Origin: Eledone cirrhosa
Lineage: Eukaryota
Direction: 5' to 3'
NCBI GenBank assembly: GCA_964016885.1
Contig: OZ024740.1
Location: 186,310,001-186,374,000, forward strand
Length of the DNA stretch: 64,000 bases
Each line of letters opens with the position of its first letter. Position 1 is the first letter of the stretch. Position numbers and translations under genes: made by a program. Below are positions 6,881 to 60,060 of the stretch, piece after piece. Below the pieces are notes generated by a model. That model was not told where the DNA came from and searched no databases. It was given only the letters and a program-made list of their open reading frames with translations.

Positions 6881-6923
6881 GTCAAAGTTCTTTCGTCACA
6901 CATTATGTGACCTCTTCAGTGAC
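6881..6923 (-). ncRNA. Minimal type I hammerhead ribozyme (predicted)
   Basis: Reverse complement: gtca CTGAAGA g gtcaca taatg tgtgac GAAA g aa c TT tgac. Confidence 0.8.
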
Positions 6924-7068: not shown

Positions 7069-7111
7069 GTCACTGAAGAGGTCACAGAATGTGTGACGAA
7101 AGAACTTTGAC
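7069..7111 (+). ncRNA. Minimal type I hammerhead ribozyme (predicted)
   Basis: gtca CTGAAGA g gtcaca gaatg tgtgac GAAA g aa c TT^tgac; stem I gtca/tgac, 6-bp stem II, CUU site. Confidence 0.82.
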
Positions 7112-12248: not shown

Positions 12249-12516
12249 TTAAATTTTGGAAGGAGTGCGGAAGCGGTGTTGGCAAGACGCGAACACTTCT
12301 GATTTTTTATTAAAGTGGTTATGGTTTGAGAAGATGATAGTATGTGTCTCTAGTAGACAGAGGTTACAAAATTTATTAGGTGGTTTGTACGATGTCGCGT
12401 TACCTAGCACTTCCCATTTAAGTGTATATGGTTTATTTTTAGTTTTTAGATAGTGTATGTAGCTAGATAGTGAAGTGGAGTTGGCTAGACTGTGTTTTTT
12501 GAAAGAGTGGAGGTGC

Positions 12517-12518
<2 letters not shown>
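12249..12518 (-). pseudogene. PLE GIY-YIG endonuclease C-terminal fragment (absent from the ORF track)
   Basis: Hand translation: SHLHSFKKHSLANSTSLSSYIHYLKTKNKPYTLKWEVLGNATSYKPPNKFCNLCLLETHTIIFSNHNHFNKKSEVFASCQHRFRTPSKI*. Aligns with the 40072-40287 ORF (W...Y...CNLCL.E...N.R.D/E...C.H). Confidence 0.85.
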
Positions 12519-30535: not shown

Positions 30536-32276
30536 TTATATGAGCTGGAAAGCAAGTGTGATTTCTTGTGTGGGCAACTGGTGAAAATTTCGGTTTTTGC
30601 ATTTAGGCAGGTTTTTTGGTGATTTAAGATTCTGTAAAATCCAATATTTGTCATGTATGCTGAGTGCGCATATTTTTGTTCCTCTTGCATATTCTTTAGA
30701 TTGGTTCAAAATTGACCAATCTAATTTATATTGGATACCTTGGTCTTTCAAATCCCATATTCTGCTAGCCAGAGCTGTTGTAAATCTTTTTTTCAGGATG
30801 CTGGAAAGAAGCGACATGTGAGTAATAACGCGTTTTGAATTTGTCTTGTGTCATACCCACATATCGTTCGCTGGTGGCTGGTAGGTTGTTGCTGGTGGTT
30901 GTCACTTTAGCCGCATATACAATGGCTTTGGTGTTGCATTTACCTTGTAATGGGCATTCACTTTTGACTCTACAGGAGCAATTTTGATGTTCTCTGGGTA
31001 TTTTCTCATTGAAGATATAAGATTTATTAGGGGGACCGCAGGAGTAGCGGATTTTGACACAGTTTCTATTGAAGATCTTATAGTATCTATGTGTTCTAGG
31101 GAAATGTTTATCTAAGAGCTCTAGGAATTTTTTGCCTACATTAGTTTTAACTGCTAAAGAGTATGGGGGTGTGAACCAGATTATTTTTCTTTTCCTATTA
31201 TTATGTTTAAAGGAGTTAGTATTGTTGGGTATGTACTTAATCGGTTCGCTAAATCCGCTATTTTGAAGGGCTTTATTATAGTAGGGAGATGCTTTATTGA
31301 AAATAGCTTCTGAGGAAGAGAGGGTGGAGATCTTACGGCTAATATTAGGGATGAGATTTTTAAAAACTATAGGAGGATGGCAAGAGCCTTTATTTATATA
31401 TTTTAAATATTCATTAGGTTTATGGTACGGTTTATAAGAAGCAGTAGGCAGATCTAGGTTTATATCTAGAAAATTAATATTAGAAAGGTTAGTGTCAATG
31501 GTAATTTTAAGATTAAAACTAGCGAAGGTTTTTATTAAGTCTTTCCTGAATCTATCTAAGTTATGGCCTATAGTAGTATGGGAAAGTATTAGACCATCGT
31601 CGCGATAAAGCCCAAAGGTATGGTTAGGGAATTTCTCTTTAAGTGTGTGTAGGAAGAATAGGCCGACTAAATCACACACGTTAGCACTGTCAAAAGAACC
31701 CATTGAGACATCGAATGGGTTCTCTGGGTTAGATTTGTTTACCCAAGTGACATTATTAGTAAATAGTAAAGTGTTTCTAGCATGTTAAATGACATTCTCT
31801 TCAATATCAGAAATATTGATAAACTTTCCAGCGAAATTTAAGGCTTTCGTTAAAACGAGTAGACGGGTAGAAGTCTACAATGTCAAATTGGGTGAATCTA
31901 AAACTATTTTTATCTTTAATATTATTAAACCAATGTACTACAGAAGAGTTATTTATCCATTGGAGTAATTCAGACTTACTTCTAATATGTTTGCTTATAT
32001 TATTTATTATTTTTTTGCTAGCAAGACCGATTTCAGTCTTAGCAGGGTTGATTAATCTACAACTAAGACGATTAATAAAATCAGGTTTGTGATCTTTGAG
32101 GGTGATATAGGCATTACGTTTATCAAGTTTTTCTGTTCTATTGTCTATTTTAAAAAAAATAGATAATTCTTTAGCTTCCTTATTTATAGTATAATAGGTG
32201 TTTATATTAGCTATTTGGTATTTAGAGGTGATGTTATCTGTTAAGAGTTGGTCATGTAAGTTATTATTAACTTCGT
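30536..32276 (-). pseudogene. PLE reverse transcriptase / GIY-YIG endonuclease, frameshifted
   Basis: YITLKDHK..CRLINPAK, FDIVDFYPS, MGSFDSANVCDLVG, GLYRDDGL, INFLDI, IIWFTPPYS, CSCRVKSECPLQGKC, IVYAAKV..RYVGMTQDKFKTRYYSH, IWDLKD..W; several frameshifts and a stop. Confidence 0.93.
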
Positions 32277-34273
32277 ATATATATATATATATTATTATTA
32301 ACTTCGTATATATATATATATATATATATTACTTAAAGCTTGAGTTGTGGGACATGTACTTCATCAACTGTCAACTGGACATCACTCTCATTTATACACA
32401 CACTCCCTCGCATAAACTCTCACACACACACCTACATCCAAGCCCCCTACCCCATATATATATATACATATATATATTTATATGTATTCCTGGGGTTCTT
32501 TTCCCAATGTCCCATTGTTTATGCGTATGCTAGCACAAGTATGTACACAATTCAATAGTTATGTTTCTGAAACACTATGAGTCCTATAACATATTGTAAC
32601 TTATGTATGCAAGGTAGACTCTCAATTTCTCTATCGGTGTAAGACTTGAGAATTTTAATGAGTAATTAGGCATTTTATGAAACTGGCAACAACTTCACCA
32701 CAAGTGACGGGATGGTTGCAGAGAATATTTAGAGTTAGAAAACTGGTAGGGATATTGAACCAAACATAACGTAAACCATTTAGACTAAAAGAAATGAAGA
32801 GAAGGCAAGTATTTTGCAAATAATAAGATTTGAACAAATTCAAGCAATCAATCTTAGAAGAATTAGATGTACGATGTACTTCTATAGCATGGTAAGTAAT
32901 TAAATAGTTCAAGAGAATATTTTATTACTTCTATCAGGATTATATGGTTGTAGCTTGCATCACACACAAACGCTGCACCGGTAGTTGCGTGAGTGTGTGC
33001 TTGTGTGTCTTTGTGTGTGTGTGTGTGTGTTTGTGTGTGTTTGTGTGTGTTTGTGTGTGTGTGTTTCAGTAGTCTAGATTGCTTCAGCCAGTAATTTTCC
33101 CTTCATAGTGTCAAGCTGATTATTGAATAATAATAAATCCAGCCATCGTAAACAAGGACTATTGCTTAGCATTTGAATCAGCTATTGCAAAATGTTGAAA
33201 GCTTGAAGACTCTACTCTCTGTGGTAAAAAGGTAACGATACACGTTTTTTGACATGTAGAAACTAACTACCCGTGCTAGTATCAAACCTGAGTCCTACAA
33301 CACATCAAAGATGTTCAATTTTCTTCCTTTAACATTGCGACTAAGTACCGTAATACGCTGCTTGTCAAAATAACTCAATTGACTCATAACTTCCATAAAA
33401 CATAAGGCAATAAATTGCCTGAAGAGGGCTGTCATAAGACAATATTTGGTATAATGACTCATACTTTCTGTGTTAACTGCGTTGTTTGTCTATGTCATAA
33501 GACAGTTCACCTATTTTGTGTGTGTAATATTCTTGTTCTCTCCCATATGCACCTTCTCAATTAGCTTGTTTATTCACATCTATTGATACACAGTGGCATA
33601 CAGTTGTGATCTTGCCCATAGTGGAAGAAATCGGATGATCCACTTGCAGGAGCTGCTATACTGGAATATCGATAGTTTTATATATCCGTTTCATTTATTG
33701 TACCTTAAGACTGTCATTTCCTCCTTTCTTTTGTTCCCTTGTGCATTTTCCTCTACGTATCTCCATACGTCAATGCTACGCTGATACACACGTTACACTT
33801 AATCTCTACATATATATGTGAATATGCATATATATATATATATTAATATATATATATGCGTGTGTGTGTTTGTGTGTTTATGTGTGAAAGTGTGTACACA
33901 TATATTTATAAATACGTTCATGTAAACATATCTATATACATACATGTAAATATATGTGTGTTTATGTATGTACATATGTGTTTAGGAACACAAAAACTTT
34001 AAAATATTGACAGCATCATAGAGGCTTGAATACAAGATACATTTTCTTAAGTAGAAGAGGTTTTTGATATTTTATCGTTTTGAATTACTATGCCATTAGA
34101 ATTTCTAGGGTAATAGCACTTTTTCCAATGTTTTTTTTTTTTATTCAGCTTCTGCATAAATGCAATAACGTCTTGCTGAATTTGTTATCATTATGTAATG
34201 ATACAATAGTAATAGAATCGCGGGTTTAAATGGATTTTAAAGCAAAGGAGTGGCTATCTATTTATACTTAAAA

Positions 34274-39053: not shown

Positions 39054-40297
39054 AGATCAAAAGATGGTTAAAAGAGTTCCATGTATTTTATTATGCGCAT
39101 TTCAAAAACAAATATCATCATGCAATAACATTTGTGTTTTCATCAGATAAAATAGGAAGACATGATATGAAGGTTAAAAAACACTTGTGAATAGTGCAGT
39201 TTTAAATCAACATATGAAAAGTAGTTTTAGATTGATGTGTGATATTGGGAAACAAAGTTTTGATGGGGGGTGGGGGGTGGAAAGGATGAAAAAGAGGAGG
39301 AGATGAGAGTAAAAAGTGAAGGGGGAGGAGTATAATGAGGAAGGATGAGATATGAGGAGAGATGGGTGATAGAGAGAGATAGATAGCTTTTATAACTGAG
39401 AAAAATATATTGTTTTACATAGAGAGGTTGAAAAACCGTTGGAAGATAATATATAAATTAAAAGAATTTGAAAATTAACGAAGAGAAAAATAATGTTAAG
39501 TTAAGGTTTGTATAATATGTGCGATGGAAAGAAATTGTTAATATGTATTAAGAATAATATTTAAGGGTTTAATAATATGTGCGATGGAAAGAAAATGTTG
39601 ATATGTATTATTAAAAAAAATGTAAAAATATAGCAATAGTAATGTAAGTAAGGATATATTGTGAAAGAAGTAGAAGATAGGATGAATAAGTTAGATGAGC
39701 ATGAAAGGGAGAAAAAAATAATGAATTGAGGATGAATAATCTAACGTCAAAAAAATGTTTATGTTTACGAAGGATTTTTTCAAGGTGATATAAAGTAAGA
39801 ATATATTGTACTGTGTAATAATTGTTTCTATGTTAGGCACAATGAGAAAAGGTACAGATTAGGGGTTAGAAATTAAAAGAAAAAGAAAAGAAAAGGAAAA
39901 GGAAGAAAGTGAAGTGATAAATAGGAGTGATATAGAATGAGTAACTAGTATTATATAATGTATAATAAATAACTTTGAAATAAGGTAGAAAGATGGGTAT
40001 ATTTTTAAAGAAGTATATATATATATGTGTGCCTTTGAGAAAAGGATTTTAAATTGATAAAGTATTAGATATTAGCTGTATACTTTATGGAATGTTCTGT
40101 GGAATTTATGCAAGCAGAGAGAAAACAAGTCAGTGCGTCTATTTATTATAGAATCTAAATTAGATATAATGGTAAATTTTTCATTTAAACAGAGATTGCA
40201 AGTCTTGGATAGAGAACTGTTTAAGTATGGAGAAGCAGAAGAAACCTTTTTCCAAGAGATGTTATATTTAATATTTTTGTCTTTCAAGGACCATATG
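39050..40297 (-). mobile_element. 5'-truncated Penelope-like element (GIY-YIG C-terminus, ~1-kb 3' UTR, HHR)
   Basis: ORF 40072-40287 KYNISWKKVSSASPY..TCNLCLNEKFTI..NRRTDLFSLCLHK; HHR at the 3' end; (TA)n at the 3' junction. Confidence 0.85.
39084..39154 (-). ncRNA. Hammerhead ribozyme, intact-looking (predicted)
   Basis: Reverse complement: tattttat CTGATGA aaacacaaatgttattgcatgatgatatttgttttt GAAA TGCGCA TA^ataaaata; 8-bp stem I, long stem II, palindromic stem III. Confidence 0.88.
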
Positions 40298-45661: not shown

Positions 45662-45853
45662 AGGAAAATAGTCAAGACCCCGACGGCTGAGCTCCGGCCG
45701 TTTCGACAGCTATTTCTGAAATACCTGTCGAAACGGCCGCAGCACGGCCGTGGGGGTCCTGACTAGTTTCCTATTACCCACTCTACTACCCATAGTATCG
45801 AGTACTATGGTGCGTTATGGTCCACCTAGTTCCTTACCACACTTCCTTCGTTA
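45662..45853 (+). mobile_element. Family A hairpin element, copy 3
   Basis: Homologous to 960-1160 over its full length. Confidence 0.8.
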
Positions 45854-46705
<852 letters not shown>

Positions 46706-48449
46706 GAAATTGGAATAAATGCTCTGAAATAGCGATATATATGTGAATATAGACACAGAATATTCGAAAATATTCTGTATGTTTATAATAAACATTTTGA
46801 AGACCTAATCGCTATAGAATAGAATACGTCACGTATTACAATTAGATTCTCGATAAAAGCAAGGGAAGTAAGTCTACGCGTTTCATTCTTGTTAGAATTC
46901 ATCAGGACTACATATCCAGTGCTTTTATCGAGAATGACACAGCTAGAGACTTATAGAATACTTAGCTGTGTACAGGAACTGGTTTGAAAGAGCGGTTGCC
47001 GGTCCGGCAGAAATTAGAAATTGGAATAAATGCTCTGAAATAGCGATATATATGTGAATATAGACACAGAATATTCGAAAATATTCTGTATGTTTATAAT
47101 AAACATTTTGAAGACCTAATCGCTATAGAATAGAATACGTCACGTATTACAATTAGATTCTCGATAAAAGCAAGGGAAGTAAGTCTACGCGTTTCATTCT
47201 TGTTAGAATTCATCAGGACTACATATCCAGTGCTTTTATCGAGAATGACACAGCTAGAGACTTATAGAATACTTAGCTGTGTACAGGAACTGGTTTGAAA
47301 GAGCGGTTGCCGGTCCGGCAGAAATTAGAAATTGGAATAAATGCTCTGAAATAGCGATATATATGTGAATATAGACACAGAATATTCGAAAATATTCTGT
47401 ATGTTTATAATAAACATTTTGAAGACCTAATCGCTATAGAATAGAATACGTCACGTATTACAATTAGATTCTCGATAAAAGCAAGGGAAGTAAGTCTACG
47501 CGTTTCATTCTTGTTAGAATTCATCAGGACTACATATCCAGTGCTTTTATCGAGAATGACACAGCTAGAGACTTATAGAATACTTAGCTGTGTACAGGAA
47601 CTGGTTTGAAAGAGCGGTTGCCGGTCCGGCAGAAATTAGAAATTGGAATAAATGCTCTGAAATAGCGATATATATGTGAATATAGACACAGAATATTCGA
47701 AAATATTCTGTATGTTTATAATAAACATTTTGAAGACCTAATCGCTATAGAATAGAATACGTCACGTATTACAATTAGATTCTCGATAAAAGCAAGGGAA
47801 GTAAGTCTACGCGTTTCATTCTTGTTAGAATTCATCAGGACTACATATCCAGTGCTTTTATCGAGAATGACACAGCTAGAGACTTATAGAATACTTAGCT
47901 GTGTACAGGAACTGGTTTGAAAGAGCGGTTGCCGGTCCGGCAGAAATTAGAAATTGGAATAAATGCTCTGAAATAGCGATATATATGTGAATATAGACAC
48001 AGAATATTCGAAAATATTCTGTATGTTTATAATAAACATTTTGAAGACCTAATCGCTATAGAATAGAATACGTCACGTATTACAATTAGATTCTCGATAA
48101 AAGCAAGGGAAGTAAGTCTACGCGTTTCATTCTTGTTAGAATTCATCAGGACTACATATCCAGTGCTTTTATCGAGAATGACACAGCTAGAGACTTATAG
48201 AATACTTAGCTGTGTACAGGAACTGGTTTGAAAGAGCGGTTGCCGGTCCGGCAGAAATTAGAAATTGGAATAAATGCTCTGAAATAGCGATATATATGTG
48301 AATATAGACACAGAATATTCGAAAATATTCTGTATGTTTATAATAAACATTTTGAAGACCTAATCGCTATAGAATAGAATACGTCACGTATTACAATTAG
48401 ATTCTCGATAAAAGCAAGGGAAGTAAGTCTACGCGTTTCATTCTTGTTA
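46706..48449 (-). mobile_element. Retrozyme-like tandem array, left arm (5.6 x 311 bp, 5 intact HHRs)
   Basis: Units start at 46706, 47017, 47328, 47639, 47950, 48261; no differences seen by eye; HHR on the - strand in each complete unit. Confidence 0.9.
46868..46911 (-). ncRNA. Hammerhead ribozyme (first of 5 in the left arm, period 311)
   Basis: Exact reverse complement of 48704-48747. Confidence 0.92.
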
Positions 48450-51057
48450 ATCGAGAATCTAATTGTAATACGTGACGTATTCTATTCTATAGCGATTAGG
48501 TCTTCAAAATGTTTATTATAAACATACAGAATATTTTCGAATATTCTGTGTCTATATTCACATATATATCGCTATTTCAGAGCATTTATTCCAATTTCTA
48601 ATTTCTGCCGGACCGGCAACCGCTCTTTCAAACCAGTTCCTGTACACAGCTAAGTATTCTATAAGTCTCTAGCTGTGTCATTCTCGATAAAAGCACTGGA
48701 TATGTAGTCCTGATGAATTCTAACAAGAATGAAACGCGTAGACTTACTTCCCTTGCTTTTATCGAGAATCTAATTGTAATACGTGACGTATTCTATTCTA
48801 TAGCGATTAGGTCTTCAAAATGTTTATTATAAACATACAGAATATTTTCGAATATTCTGTGTCTATATTCACATATATATCGCTATTTCAGAGCATTTAT
48901 TCCAATTTCTAATTTCTGCCGGACCGGCAACCGCTCTTTCAAACCAGTTCCTGTACACAGCTAAGTATTCTATAAGTCTCTAGCTGTGTCATTCTCGATA
49001 AAAGCACTGGATATGTAGTCCTGATGAATTCTAACAAGAATGAAACGCGTAGACTTACTTCCCTTGCTTTTATCGAGAATCTAATTGTAATACGTGACGT
49101 ATTCTATTCTATAGCGATTAGGTCTTCAAAATGTTTATTATAAACATACAGAATATTTTCGAATATTCTGTGTCTATATTCACATATATATCGCTATTTC
49201 AGAGCATTTATTCCAATTTCTAATTTCTGCCGGACCGGCAACCGCTCTTTCAAACCAGTTCCTGTACACAGCTAAGTATTCTATAAGTCTCTAGCTGTGT
49301 CATTCTCGATAAAAGCACTGGATATGTAGTCCTGATGAATTCTAACAAGAATGAAACGCGTAGACTTACTTCCCTTGCTTTTATCGAGAATCTAATTGTA
49401 ATACGTGACGTATTCTATTCTATAGCGATTAGGTCTTCAAAATGTTTATTATAAACATACAGAATATTTTCGAATATTCTGTGTCTATATTCACATATAT
49501 ATCGCTATTTCAGAGCATTTATTCCAATTTCTAATTTCTGCCGGACCGGCAACCGCTCTTTCAAACCAGTTCCTGTACACAGCTAAGTATTCTATAAGTC
49601 TCTAGCTGTGTCATTCTCGATAAAAGCACTGGATATGTAGTCCTGATGAATTCTAACAAGAATGAAACGCGTAGACTTACTTCCCTTGCTTTTATCGAGA
49701 ATCTAATTGTAATACGTGACGTATTCTATTCTATAGCGATTAGGTCTTCAAAATGTTTATTATAAACATACAGAATATTTTCGAATATTCTGTGTCTATA
49801 TTCACATATATATCGCTATTTCAGAGCATTTATTCCAATTTCTAATTTCTGCCGGACCGGCAACCGCTCTTTCAAACCAGTTCCTGTACACAGCTAAGTA
49901 TTCTATAAGTCTCTAGCTGTGTCATTCTCGATAAAAGCACTGGATATGTAGTCCTGATGAATTCTAACAAGAATGAAACGCGTAGACTTACTTCCCTTGC
50001 TTTTATCGAGAATCTAATTGTAATACGTGACGTATTCTATTCTATAGCGATTAGGTCTTCAAAATGTTTATTATAAACATACAGAATATTTTCGAATATT
50101 CTGTGTCTATATTCACATATATATCGCTATTTCAGAGCATTTATTCCAATTTCTAATTTCTGCCGGACCGGCAACCGCTCTTTCAAACCAGTTCCTGTAC
50201 ACAGCTAAGTATTCTATAAGTCTCTAGCTGTGTCATTCTCGATAAAAGCACTGGATATGTAGTCCTGATGAATTCTAACAAGAATGAAACGCGTAGACTT
50301 ACTTCCCTTGCTTTTATCGAGAATCTAATTGTAATACGTGACGTATTCTATTCTATAGCGATTAGGTCTTCAAAATGTTTATTATAAACATACAGAATAT
50401 TTTCGAATATTCTGTGTCTATATTCACATATATATCGCTATTTCAGAGCATTTATTCCAATTTCTAATTTCTGCCGGACCGGCAACCGCTCTTTCAAACC
50501 AGTTCCTGTACACAGCTAAGTATTCTATAAGTCTCTAGCTGTGTCATTCTCGATAAAAGCACTGGATATGTAGTCCTGATGAATTCTAACAAGAATGAAA
50601 CGCGTAGACTTACTTCCCTTGCTTTTATCGAGAATCTAATTGTAATACGTGACGTATTCTATTCTATAGCGATTAGGTCTTCAAAATGTTTATTATAAAC
50701 ATACAGAATATTTTCGAATATTCTGTGTCTATATTCACATATATATCGCTATTTCAGAGCATTTATTCCAATTTCTAATTTCTGCCGGACCGGCAACCGC
50801 TCTTTCAAACCAGTTCCTGTACACAGCTAAGTATTCTATAAGTCTCTAGCTGTGTCATTCTCGATAAAAGCACTGGATATGTAGTCCTGATGAATTCTAA
50901 CAAGAATGAAACGCGTAGACTTACTTCCCTTGCTTTTATCGAGAATCTAATTGTAATACGTGACGTATTCTATTCTATAGCGATTAGGTCTTCAAAATGT
51001 TTATTATAAACATACAGAATATTTTCGAATATTCTGTGTCTATATTCACATATATAT
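48450..51057 (+). mobile_element. Retrozyme-like tandem array, right arm (8.4 x 311 bp, 8 intact HHRs)
   Basis: Reverse complement of the left-arm unit; CTGATGA at 48710, 49021, 49332, 49643, 49954, 50265, 50576, 50887; ends at the unit's internal catatatat, which merges into (TA)n. Confidence 0.9.
48704..48747 (+). ncRNA. Minimal type I hammerhead ribozyme (first of 8 in the right arm)
   Basis: gtagtc CTGATGA attct aaca agaat GAAA CGCG TA^gacttac. Full core, 5-bp stem II, palindromic stem III, GUA site at 48740; stem I extended by a 16-bp attctcgataaaagca/tgcttttatcgagaat helix. Confidence 0.93.
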
Positions 51058-51076
51058 ATGTATATATATATACATA

Positions 51077-51120
<44 letters not shown>

Positions 51121-51699: not shown

Positions 51700-51880
51700 A
51701 GGTAGAACACTGGAAGGTAATATCCGTAGTGGTAGAGCACTCAGTCCATGGCACGAGTTAGGTAGAAGTGGTTATACAACAGTTAGTTCACCATACCGAG
51801 ACCAATTGTTTCACCTTAGCTGAGGATCCGCTAAGGTGAAACAATTGTTCTCGGTATGGTGAACTAACTGTTGTATAACC

Positions 51881-59775: not shown

Positions 59776-59833
59776 ATACTATGATAATTTCAATGACCGG
59801 GTTCTGTATGAATCCGGTGACATCATCAGGTAT
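59776..59833 (-). ncRNA. Hammerhead ribozyme (predicted)
   Basis: Reverse complement: atac CTGATGA tgtcaccggattcatacagaacccggtcatt GAAA ttatca TA^gtat. Confidence 0.75.
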
Positions 59834-60002: not shown

Positions 60003-60060
60003 ATACCTGATGATTTCACCGGATTCATACTGAACCTGTTCATTGAAATGATCATAGTAT
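60003..60060 (+). ncRNA. Hammerhead ribozyme (predicted)
   Basis: atac CTGATGA tttcaccggattcatactgaacctgttcatt GAAA TGATCA TA^gtat; palindromic stem III. Confidence 0.75.

What the first reader, a model, noticed from the sequence alone, without database searches (positions are those of the whole stretch)
46706..51057. Retrozyme-like concatemer: ~14 apparently identical 311-bp units with 13 intact hammerhead ribozymes
Seen: period 311 bp, no differences between units by eye, no ORF of 60 aa or more, one complete minimal type I HHR per unit (CTGATGA / stem II / GAAA CGCG TA), inserted in (TA)n. Known: metazoan non-LTR retrozymes are tandem repeats of a few hundred bp with minimal HHRs that yield monomeric linear and circular RNAs and are thought to depend on Penelope-like elements; a palindromic stem III allows dimeric cleavage. 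Inference: a recent rolling-circle cDNA of a 311-nt circular RNA. Whether this family is already described cannot be told from the sequence.
Basis: partly seen in the sequence, partly recalled or inferred. Interest (0 to 1): 0.92.

Follow-up and report, generated by a model that had tools for sequence, protein, structure and literature searches.

The report
Two-armed hammerhead retrozyme insertion family
This is one of over a thousand young insertions of a 311-base repeat with a predicted self-cutting RNA motif, most built as two back-to-back runs with fixed end points, which likely record a Penelope-type retrotransposon copying round and round a small RNA circle from both ends of a DNA break.

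Summary
The repeat and its 13 hammerhead cores are real, but it is not one concatemer. It is 5.61 units on the minus strand joined head-to-head to 8.39 on the plus strand, inside (TA)n. The genome holds 18,116 such cores and at least 1,268 insertion ends. All 111 complete inverted insertions examined have one arm ending at unit position 131-140 and the other at 160-173: the inverted-copy-plus-tail mark of Penelope-like elements (PLEs). Ends avoid the ribozyme site, neither arm is consistently longer, and locus-specific variants are fixed through both arms (127 of 127 sites). Best reading: a non-LTR retrozyme copied by a PLE enzyme from both ends of a break, mostly rolling on a unit-length RNA circle. 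A few mosaic loci point to multimeric templates instead. Fixed variants lean to A>G on the ribozyme strand, a hint of RNA editing. Cleavage, the circle and the partner PLE are not shown. The family type is known; I found no paper describing this architecture. The scan noted PLE-type ends on a ribozyme-free array in another genome.

The parts
46706..48449 (-). Left arm, 5.61 units; outer (3') end at unit position 169, the 'tail' end (positions counted from the base after the predicted cleavage site); inner end at 292
48450..51057 (+). Right arm, 8.39 units; inner end at unit position 21; outer (3') end at 140, the 'short' end
48449..48450 (.). Head-to-head junction, no overlap and no added letters
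48710..48740 (+). First of 8 plus-strand type I hammerhead cores (others start at 49021, 49332, 49643, 49954, 50265, 50576, 50887); predicted cut after GUA at 48740; palindromic stem III ACGCGU
46875..46905 (-). Outermost of 5 minus-strand cores (others 47186-47216, 47497-47527, 47808-47838, 48119-48149)
48680..48769 (+). Long stem I closing the ribozyme (outer 17-bp helix 48680-48696 with 48753-48769); carries the recurrent A>G sites 21, 260 and 277
48839..48858 (+). 8-bp UUCG hairpin just 5' of the two end points, kept in the sister family with one double-sided change; candidate protein-binding site (inferred)
48873..48880 (+). AUAUAUAU, unit positions 133-140: site of the short end, complementary to a (TA)n primer
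48881..48906 (+). Tail between the two end points (positions 141-166); TCGCTATTTCAGAGCA is shared with the sister family
45852..46705 (.). Left (TA)n target tract, about 850 bp with repeated interruptions
51058..51120 (.). Right (TA)n target tract

Best explanation
This is a young copy of a non-coding, hammerhead-bearing repeat family whose two back-to-back arms were likely written in one event by a Penelope-like retrotransposon enzyme, which would cut both strands of a (TA)n tract and extend both DNA ends on a predicted unit-length RNA circle. Steps. (1) Arrays are transcribed (inferred). (2) Neighbouring ribozymes pair through ACGCGU and cut after GUA (predicted fold), and a host ligase closes 310-311-nt circles (inferred from other retrozymes). 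(3) One DNA end starts at position about 166 with 1-2 matching letters; the other anneals to AUAUAUAU at 133-140 (end points shown, priming inferred). (4) Each cDNA runs on average 5 rounds, up to 23, across the ligation site without a scar (lengths shown). (5) The two cDNA ends are joined bluntly or by a few matching letters (shown). A minority of events use multimeric RNA or switch template.
For: 111 of 111 complete inverted insertions pair one short with one tail end. Among outward-facing end pairs on the first 166 Mb of contig 1, 50 of 50 are mixed, p 1.8e-15 against free assortment (these overlap the 111). 12 of 12 inverted loci chosen by unit identity alone follow the rule. A protein-coding Hydra-type PLE of this genome does too: 21 of 29 loci had an opposite arm and all 21 were short-ended. 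108 of 111 sit in TA-rich flanks; at the short end 73 of 111 carry target-derived T in place of unit C132. A PLE protein extends both target strands and starts at two internal sites bounding the tail in vitro (PMC11167929). Unit-length template: 127 of 127 testable fixed variants agree between arms; 45 haplotypes among 116 insertions, 20 with a private fixed variant; inner ends within 5 nt of the cut site 6 of 222, expected 7.9; 3 clear single-unit substitutions near that site in 1109 passes. RNA stage: fixed A>G 13 sites vs T>C 5, single-unit 9 vs 23, Fisher p 0.0035; A>G recurs on 4, 4, 3 and 2 backgrounds at four stem positions. The lowest-energy fold of a dimer is the double hammerhead.
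Against: Three insertions carry the same unit-level difference at the same round in both arms (L229, L122, L217), L139 at different rounds, L134 switches letter within one arm, and L060 and L267 have a variant in 2-3 separate units. A monomer circle does not give these without template switching; a multimeric template does. No autonomous element sharing the unit's sequence was found. Rfam score is far below threshold, and the commonest allele has U-U instead of A-U at the base of stem II. The A>G excess could also come from tolerance of G-U pairs. Most loci were chosen by an end pattern and come from one contig. 19 of 130 insertions have a single arm. A PLE hammerhead was dispensable for insertion in vitro, where uncleaved RNA was the main template (PMC11167929).
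Confidence: 0.68

Rival explanations
1. Same PLE-driven two-ended priming, but the usual template is a long uncleaved or partly cleaved multimeric RNA (read from existing arrays, from excised DNA circles or by RNA-level rolling), with single-unit bottlenecks only now and then.
For: L229, L122, L217 (same round, both arms), L139, L134, L060, L267. Uncleaved RNA is the main substrate of the Anolis PLE in vitro. A minimal ribozyme may cut slowly (PMC4209133 passages).
Against: Copying from arrays with random truncation cannot lengthen arms or fix a new variant in all units, yet arms reach 22.9 units and 20 of 116 insertions have a private fixed variant. Read-through past a source junction should leave nested inversions; I saw one complex case (L045) beside 111 simple ones, and no junction pair recurs. 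Only 6 of 111 testable single-unit events appear in the other arm.
Confidence: 0.22
2. A short PLE-type insertion (one or two units per arm) later grew in place by slippage or unequal crossover, as proposed for vertebrate retrozymes.
For: Explains variants fixed in both arms; proposed in bioRxiv 10.64898/2026.07.22.740005 (Discussion); L267 could be a 7-unit local duplication.
Against: Stepwise growth should spread variants in blocks, but only 4 of 241 arms show a variant in several but not all units, against 122 single-unit substitutions in 1214 units. This locus has 14 units with no difference. The 30 best-matching loci of the older sister family are mostly about two units or shorter per arm, the opposite of growth with age.
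Confidence: 0.05
3. One cDNA folded back and copied itself, so the second arm is a copy of the first.
For: Gives the same head-to-head layout and shared variants; three loci have mirrored differences.
Against: A copy cannot exceed its template: the short-ended arm is longer in 52 of 111 and the tail-ended arm in 59. 105 of 111 testable single-unit events are absent from the other arm.
Confidence: 0.03
4. The inversion is an assembly or library artefact on an ordinary satellite.
For: Some loci lie on unplaced contigs or show scattered indels (L032).
Against: Fixed, family-specific end points, a different junction at each of 111 loci, and the same layout in a subfamily at about 95%, a sister family at roughly 70% and a coding PLE.
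Confidence: 0.01

Closest known systems
Metazoan non-LTR retrozymes (Cervera and de la Pena 2020, PMC7229834; Li, Clavereau and Pollet 2026, bioRxiv 10.64898/2026.07.22.740005)
   Same: Non-coding tandem unit of about 300 bp, low GC, one type I hammerhead per unit, short palindromic stem III, thousands of copies, PLEs in the same genome.
   Different: Described there as tandem repeats. The word 'inverted' occurs 0 times in the 2020 text and once, in a reference title, in the 2026 text. Mobilisation by reverse transcription of circles is a proposal in 2020; in 2026 the arrays are ascribed to local amplification of PLE ends. Here most insertions examined are two opposed arms with fixed ends, and no PLE end homologous to the unit was found.
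Endonuclease-bearing Penelope-like elements (Hydra, Naiad, Neptune, Penelope/Poseidon; PMC8557442, PMC11167929, PMC4209133)
   Same: Inverted 5'-truncated copy, a 30-40-bp tail on one end, (TA)n targets (Hydra, Naiad), internal start of reverse transcription at two sites, minimal hammerheads.
   Different: No reading frame. Both arms are long multimers of one unit. The two start sites are always used one per arm, whereas the Anolis protein in vitro showed no strand difference in start site.
Twin priming of LINE-1 (recalled, not read here)
   Same: Two target ends prime two cDNAs, giving an inverted 5' part joined by short matches.
   Different: No poly(A) priming, fixed internal start sites 26-42 nt apart, occurs in most insertions rather than a minority, and each arm passes the same sequence many times.

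Membership tests
Non-LTR retrozyme | Tandem unit of about 150-450 bp, low GC, no coding capacity | tested here: met
   311 bp, 108 of 311 letters G or C, longest frame 59 codons
Non-LTR retrozyme | One type I hammerhead core per unit, conserved across copies | tested here: met
   13 cores; 18,116 genome-wide; the only core position with fixed variants is the free N7; stems I and II covary with the sister family; Rfam score below threshold
Non-LTR retrozyme | Dispersed mobile copies without long terminal repeats | tested here: met
   At least 1,268 short ends over the genome; 130 complete insertions read, bounded by unit sequence and mostly (TA)n
Non-LTR retrozyme | Self-cleavage of the transcript | not testable with these tools
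   Only a predicted dimeric fold
Non-LTR retrozyme | Expressed as linear and circular monomer RNA | tested here: inconclusive
   No run on record as RNA was available; indirect support from fixed variants and the A>G bias
PLE-mobilised element | Inverted 5'-truncated copy with a tail on one end only | tested here: met
   111 of 111 inverted insertions; 19 further insertions single-armed
PLE-mobilised element | Microsatellite target | tested here: met
   108 of 111 with TA-rich flanks on both sides
PLE-mobilised element | Sequence shared with the terminal repeat of an autonomous PLE | tested here: inconclusive
   None among the PLE families met in fetched loci, except a similar core and stem II in one Hydra-type family; the genome's PLEs were not surveyed fully
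Autonomous PLE | RT plus GIY-YIG reading frame | tested here: not met
   No frame above 59 codons

The most novel reading that the evidence does not exclude
These insertions are a frozen record of the PLE reaction on a circular RNA. A paired enzyme loads one circle, starts one cDNA at the tail site and the other at the TA-matching site, and both roll for kilobases before being joined. That would explain at once the tandem, inverted and tail features of all PLEs, show that animal hammerhead circles are true transposition templates, and make host A-to-I editing of the circle a heritable source of their variation.
Probability: 0.45. Interest if true: 0.85.

Novelty: new variant of a known kind. 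Interest (0 to 1): 0.66.

Why it matters
Two open questions meet here. How PLEs make their tandem, inverted and tailed insertions is named as unsolved in PMC8557442, and copying of retrozyme circles into tandem DNA is only proposed (PMC7229834, PMC4209133). This family offers over a thousand near-identical recent events in which start sites, arm lengths, junctions and template sequence can be read, and a 311-nt substrate with two mapped start sites for an in vitro test. If true, a PLE enzyme can write multi-kilobase inserts from a small RNA circle into a double-strand break.

Tried and rejected
Rfam at gathering score: no match. Search for the autonomous partner, without success: loci ending in the tail motif were all the repeat itself (20 of 20; later sets likewise); a young Hydra-type family with 821-aa frames has its own ribozyme and no homology to the unit; a motif from a loose end in short-read contigs had 0 matches and resembles the sister family; the 272 bp between the arms of L060 match a different repeated element, by its reading-frame motifs likely a LINE (class recalled); the 3' ends of ten further PLE fragments and seven more loci showed no homology. 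Expression: no RNA holder listed; the four runs laid were contigs of unknown kind; neither says anything on expression. Target-site duplication: 14 of 111 with an interrupted direct repeat against a shuffled mean of 7.2 and maximum of 13, inconclusive. Pile-up of inner ends at the cleavage site, expected for cleaved linear templates: not seen; inner ends are mildly non-uniform (p 0.002). Two enzymes moving in step on one circle: arm lengths correlate only weakly (rho 0.21). Pfam did not name the window's PLE fragments. Literature: nine searches gave no title or abstract on inverted retrozyme arrays, twin priming by PLEs or editing of retrozymes; subscription journals, Repbase and Dfam were not searchable, and I read no supplements. 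Earlier scan notes: none on this genome or sequence.

Full report
Observation. The window holds 14.0 units of a 311-bp repeat with no mismatch, but in two opposed arms: 46706-48449 on minus (5.61 units) and 48450-51057 on plus (8.39 units), joined bluntly, inside (TA)n. There are 13 full hammerhead cores, 8 plus and 5 minus. The longest frame is 59 codons. Rfam finds nothing at gathering score and a weak HH9 match at E 0.21. The monomer folds better than shuffles (z -4.72). Stem III cannot form in a monomer, but the lowest-energy fold of a two-unit transcript pairs ACGCGU with ACGCGU and swaps stems I, the double hammerhead. Positions below count from the base after the predicted cut (48741 = 1).

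The family. The host is a 3.0-Gb, microsatellite-rich genome. The core pattern occurs 18,116 times, control 0. An exact pattern for arms ending at 131-140 in TA (short end) has 1,268 matches; one for arms ending at 166-169 (tail end) has 665 on the forward strand, the reverse count being inflated by double listing. I fetched loci in four sets: 14 by unit identity, then 20, 40 and 58 by end pattern, mostly from contig 1. With the window they gave 111 complete inverted insertions and 19 single-armed ones; 7 entries were left out because they ran off the fetched stretch, met a gap or were complex. All 111 have one short end and one tail end (tail ends at 160-173, 73 at 166). In the two end lists for the first 166 Mb of contig 1, where short-short or tail-tail pairs would have shown, 50 of 50 outward pairs were mixed (overlapping the 111). 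108 of 111 lie in TA-rich flanks. Arms average 5.1 units and reach 22.9; junctions are mostly blunt or overlap by a few letters. A subfamily at about 95% has the same two ends. An older sister family (961 candidates, roughly 70% alike by eye) has the same layout and keeps the tail motif and the hairpin before it. It shows double-sided changes in two stem I pairs and in 3 of 12 stem II and hairpin pairs; these are single events between two lineages.

Link to Penelope-like elements. An inverted truncated copy, a 30-40-bp tail on one end and (TA)n targets are PLE marks (PMC8557442: passages and sections 11 and 15). A purified PLE protein cuts and extends both target strands and starts at two internal RNA sites that bound the tail (PMC11167929: main text and first part of methods). 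The genome has many PLE families, among them a young Hydra-type one with 821-aa frames. One coding Hydra-type family obeys the same one-short-one-long rule in 21 of 21 loci with an opposite arm, of 29 examined. At the short end 73 of 111 insertions show T instead of C132, as expected if a (TA)n end annealed across AUAUAUAU and a mismatch (inference). The tail end shares only 1-2 letters with the target, which suggests a protein-set start (inference). I did not find the partner element.

Which template. Fold-back copying fails because either arm may be the longer (52 vs 59). Cleaved linear RNA should end arms at the cut site: 6 of 222 inner ends lie within 5 nt, 7.9 expected. Near that site there are 3 clear single-unit substitutions in 1109 passes, besides alignment-ambiguous calls in three loci of one subfamily. 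Variants are fixed through whole insertions: 127 of 127 testable sites agree between arms, and 116 insertions fall into 45 haplotypes, 20 with a variant seen nowhere else in the sample (the sample is roughly a tenth of the family, so some are not truly private). Such fixation needs a single-unit bottleneck followed by multiplication, which rolling on a monomer circle supplies. Growth in place is unlikely, because only 4 of 241 arms carry a variant in several but not all units. Against a pure monomer model: L229 changes haplotype after round 2 in both arms, L122 and L217 carry a variant in round 1 of both arms only, L139 at different rounds, L134 changes at 277 after round 4 of one arm while the other arm has the new letter throughout, and L060 and L267 have scattered repeats of one variant. 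These fit multimeric templates or template switches, so I take both to occur, circles more often.

RNA-stage hint. Among 38 fixed variant sites, A>G on the ribozyme strand outnumbers T>C 13 to 5, while single-unit changes run 9 to 23 (Fisher p 0.0035). A>G at 21, 277, 260 and 219 recurs on 4, 4, 3 and 2 backgrounds, all in paired stems; one other change recurs, on 2. Editing of the RNA template is the simplest reading. Tolerance of G-U pairs and recombination between templates are alternatives; no RNA data were available to decide.

Comparison. By unit size, ribozyme and dispersal this is a non-LTR retrozyme (PMC7229834: abstract, first part of results, discussion and word search). That paper and PMC4209133 (passages) propose copying of circles by a PLE but do not show it. 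The 2026 preprint (parts 1-3 of 5 and a word search) links retrozymes to PLE ends by sequence and invokes local amplification. Neither retrozyme paper describes inverted arrays in the text I saw; supplements were not read and could bear on this. Nine searches found no title or abstract on the two-armed layout. LINE-1 twin priming is recalled, not read.

Verdict. Shown: anatomy, copy number, strict end rule, variant patterns. Inferred: transcription, cleavage, circles, two-ended priming, editing. Unknown: the partner. Mobilisation by a PLE about 0.9; monomer circle as main template about 0.7; whole mechanism 0.68. New variant of a known kind, interest 0.66.

Noticed in passing
window 30536-32328 (-): Broken Hydra-type PLE (RT, CxCx5C linker, C-terminal endonuclease), about 35-39% identical to the young family; another such end at 12270-12518 (-)
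   Followed up: partly
window 6885-6919 (-) with 7073-7107 (+); 59783-59829 (-) with 60007-60053 (+); 39092-39146 (-); 51820-51846 (+): Other hammerhead-like cores, two as opposed pairs, likely ends of other PLE families
   Followed up: no
L252 (G000:C1:186304600-186309900): A second insertion of the same family about 50 kb from this one, of a different haplotype
   Followed up: yes
L060:1162-1433: 272 bp of another repeated element captured between the two arms; its 39 best other matches all lie on contig 25
   Followed up: partly
L031, L048, L270, L271 flanks; window 45852-46705: The interrupted TA target seems to be repeated several times on both sides of some insertions, as if the target were copied repeatedly
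   Followed up: partly
L045:2910-3087: The same inner junction occurs twice, with short alternating pieces between the arms
   Followed up: no
L038 (several places, two cores 468 bp apart), L049, L057: A third hammerhead family with a different palindromic stem III, apparently tandem
   Followed up: no
runs X4, X5, X6 laid on window 48586-48896: Each holds one 340-base contig of the unit that closes on itself, nearly identical, though the runs are labelled as three other organisms; carry-over, diet, related species or transfer cannot be told apart
   Followed up: no
window 48859: This window's subfamily has G where most copies have A, opposite a C in the hairpin stem; A opposite C is a favoured editing context (recalled)
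   Followed up: partly
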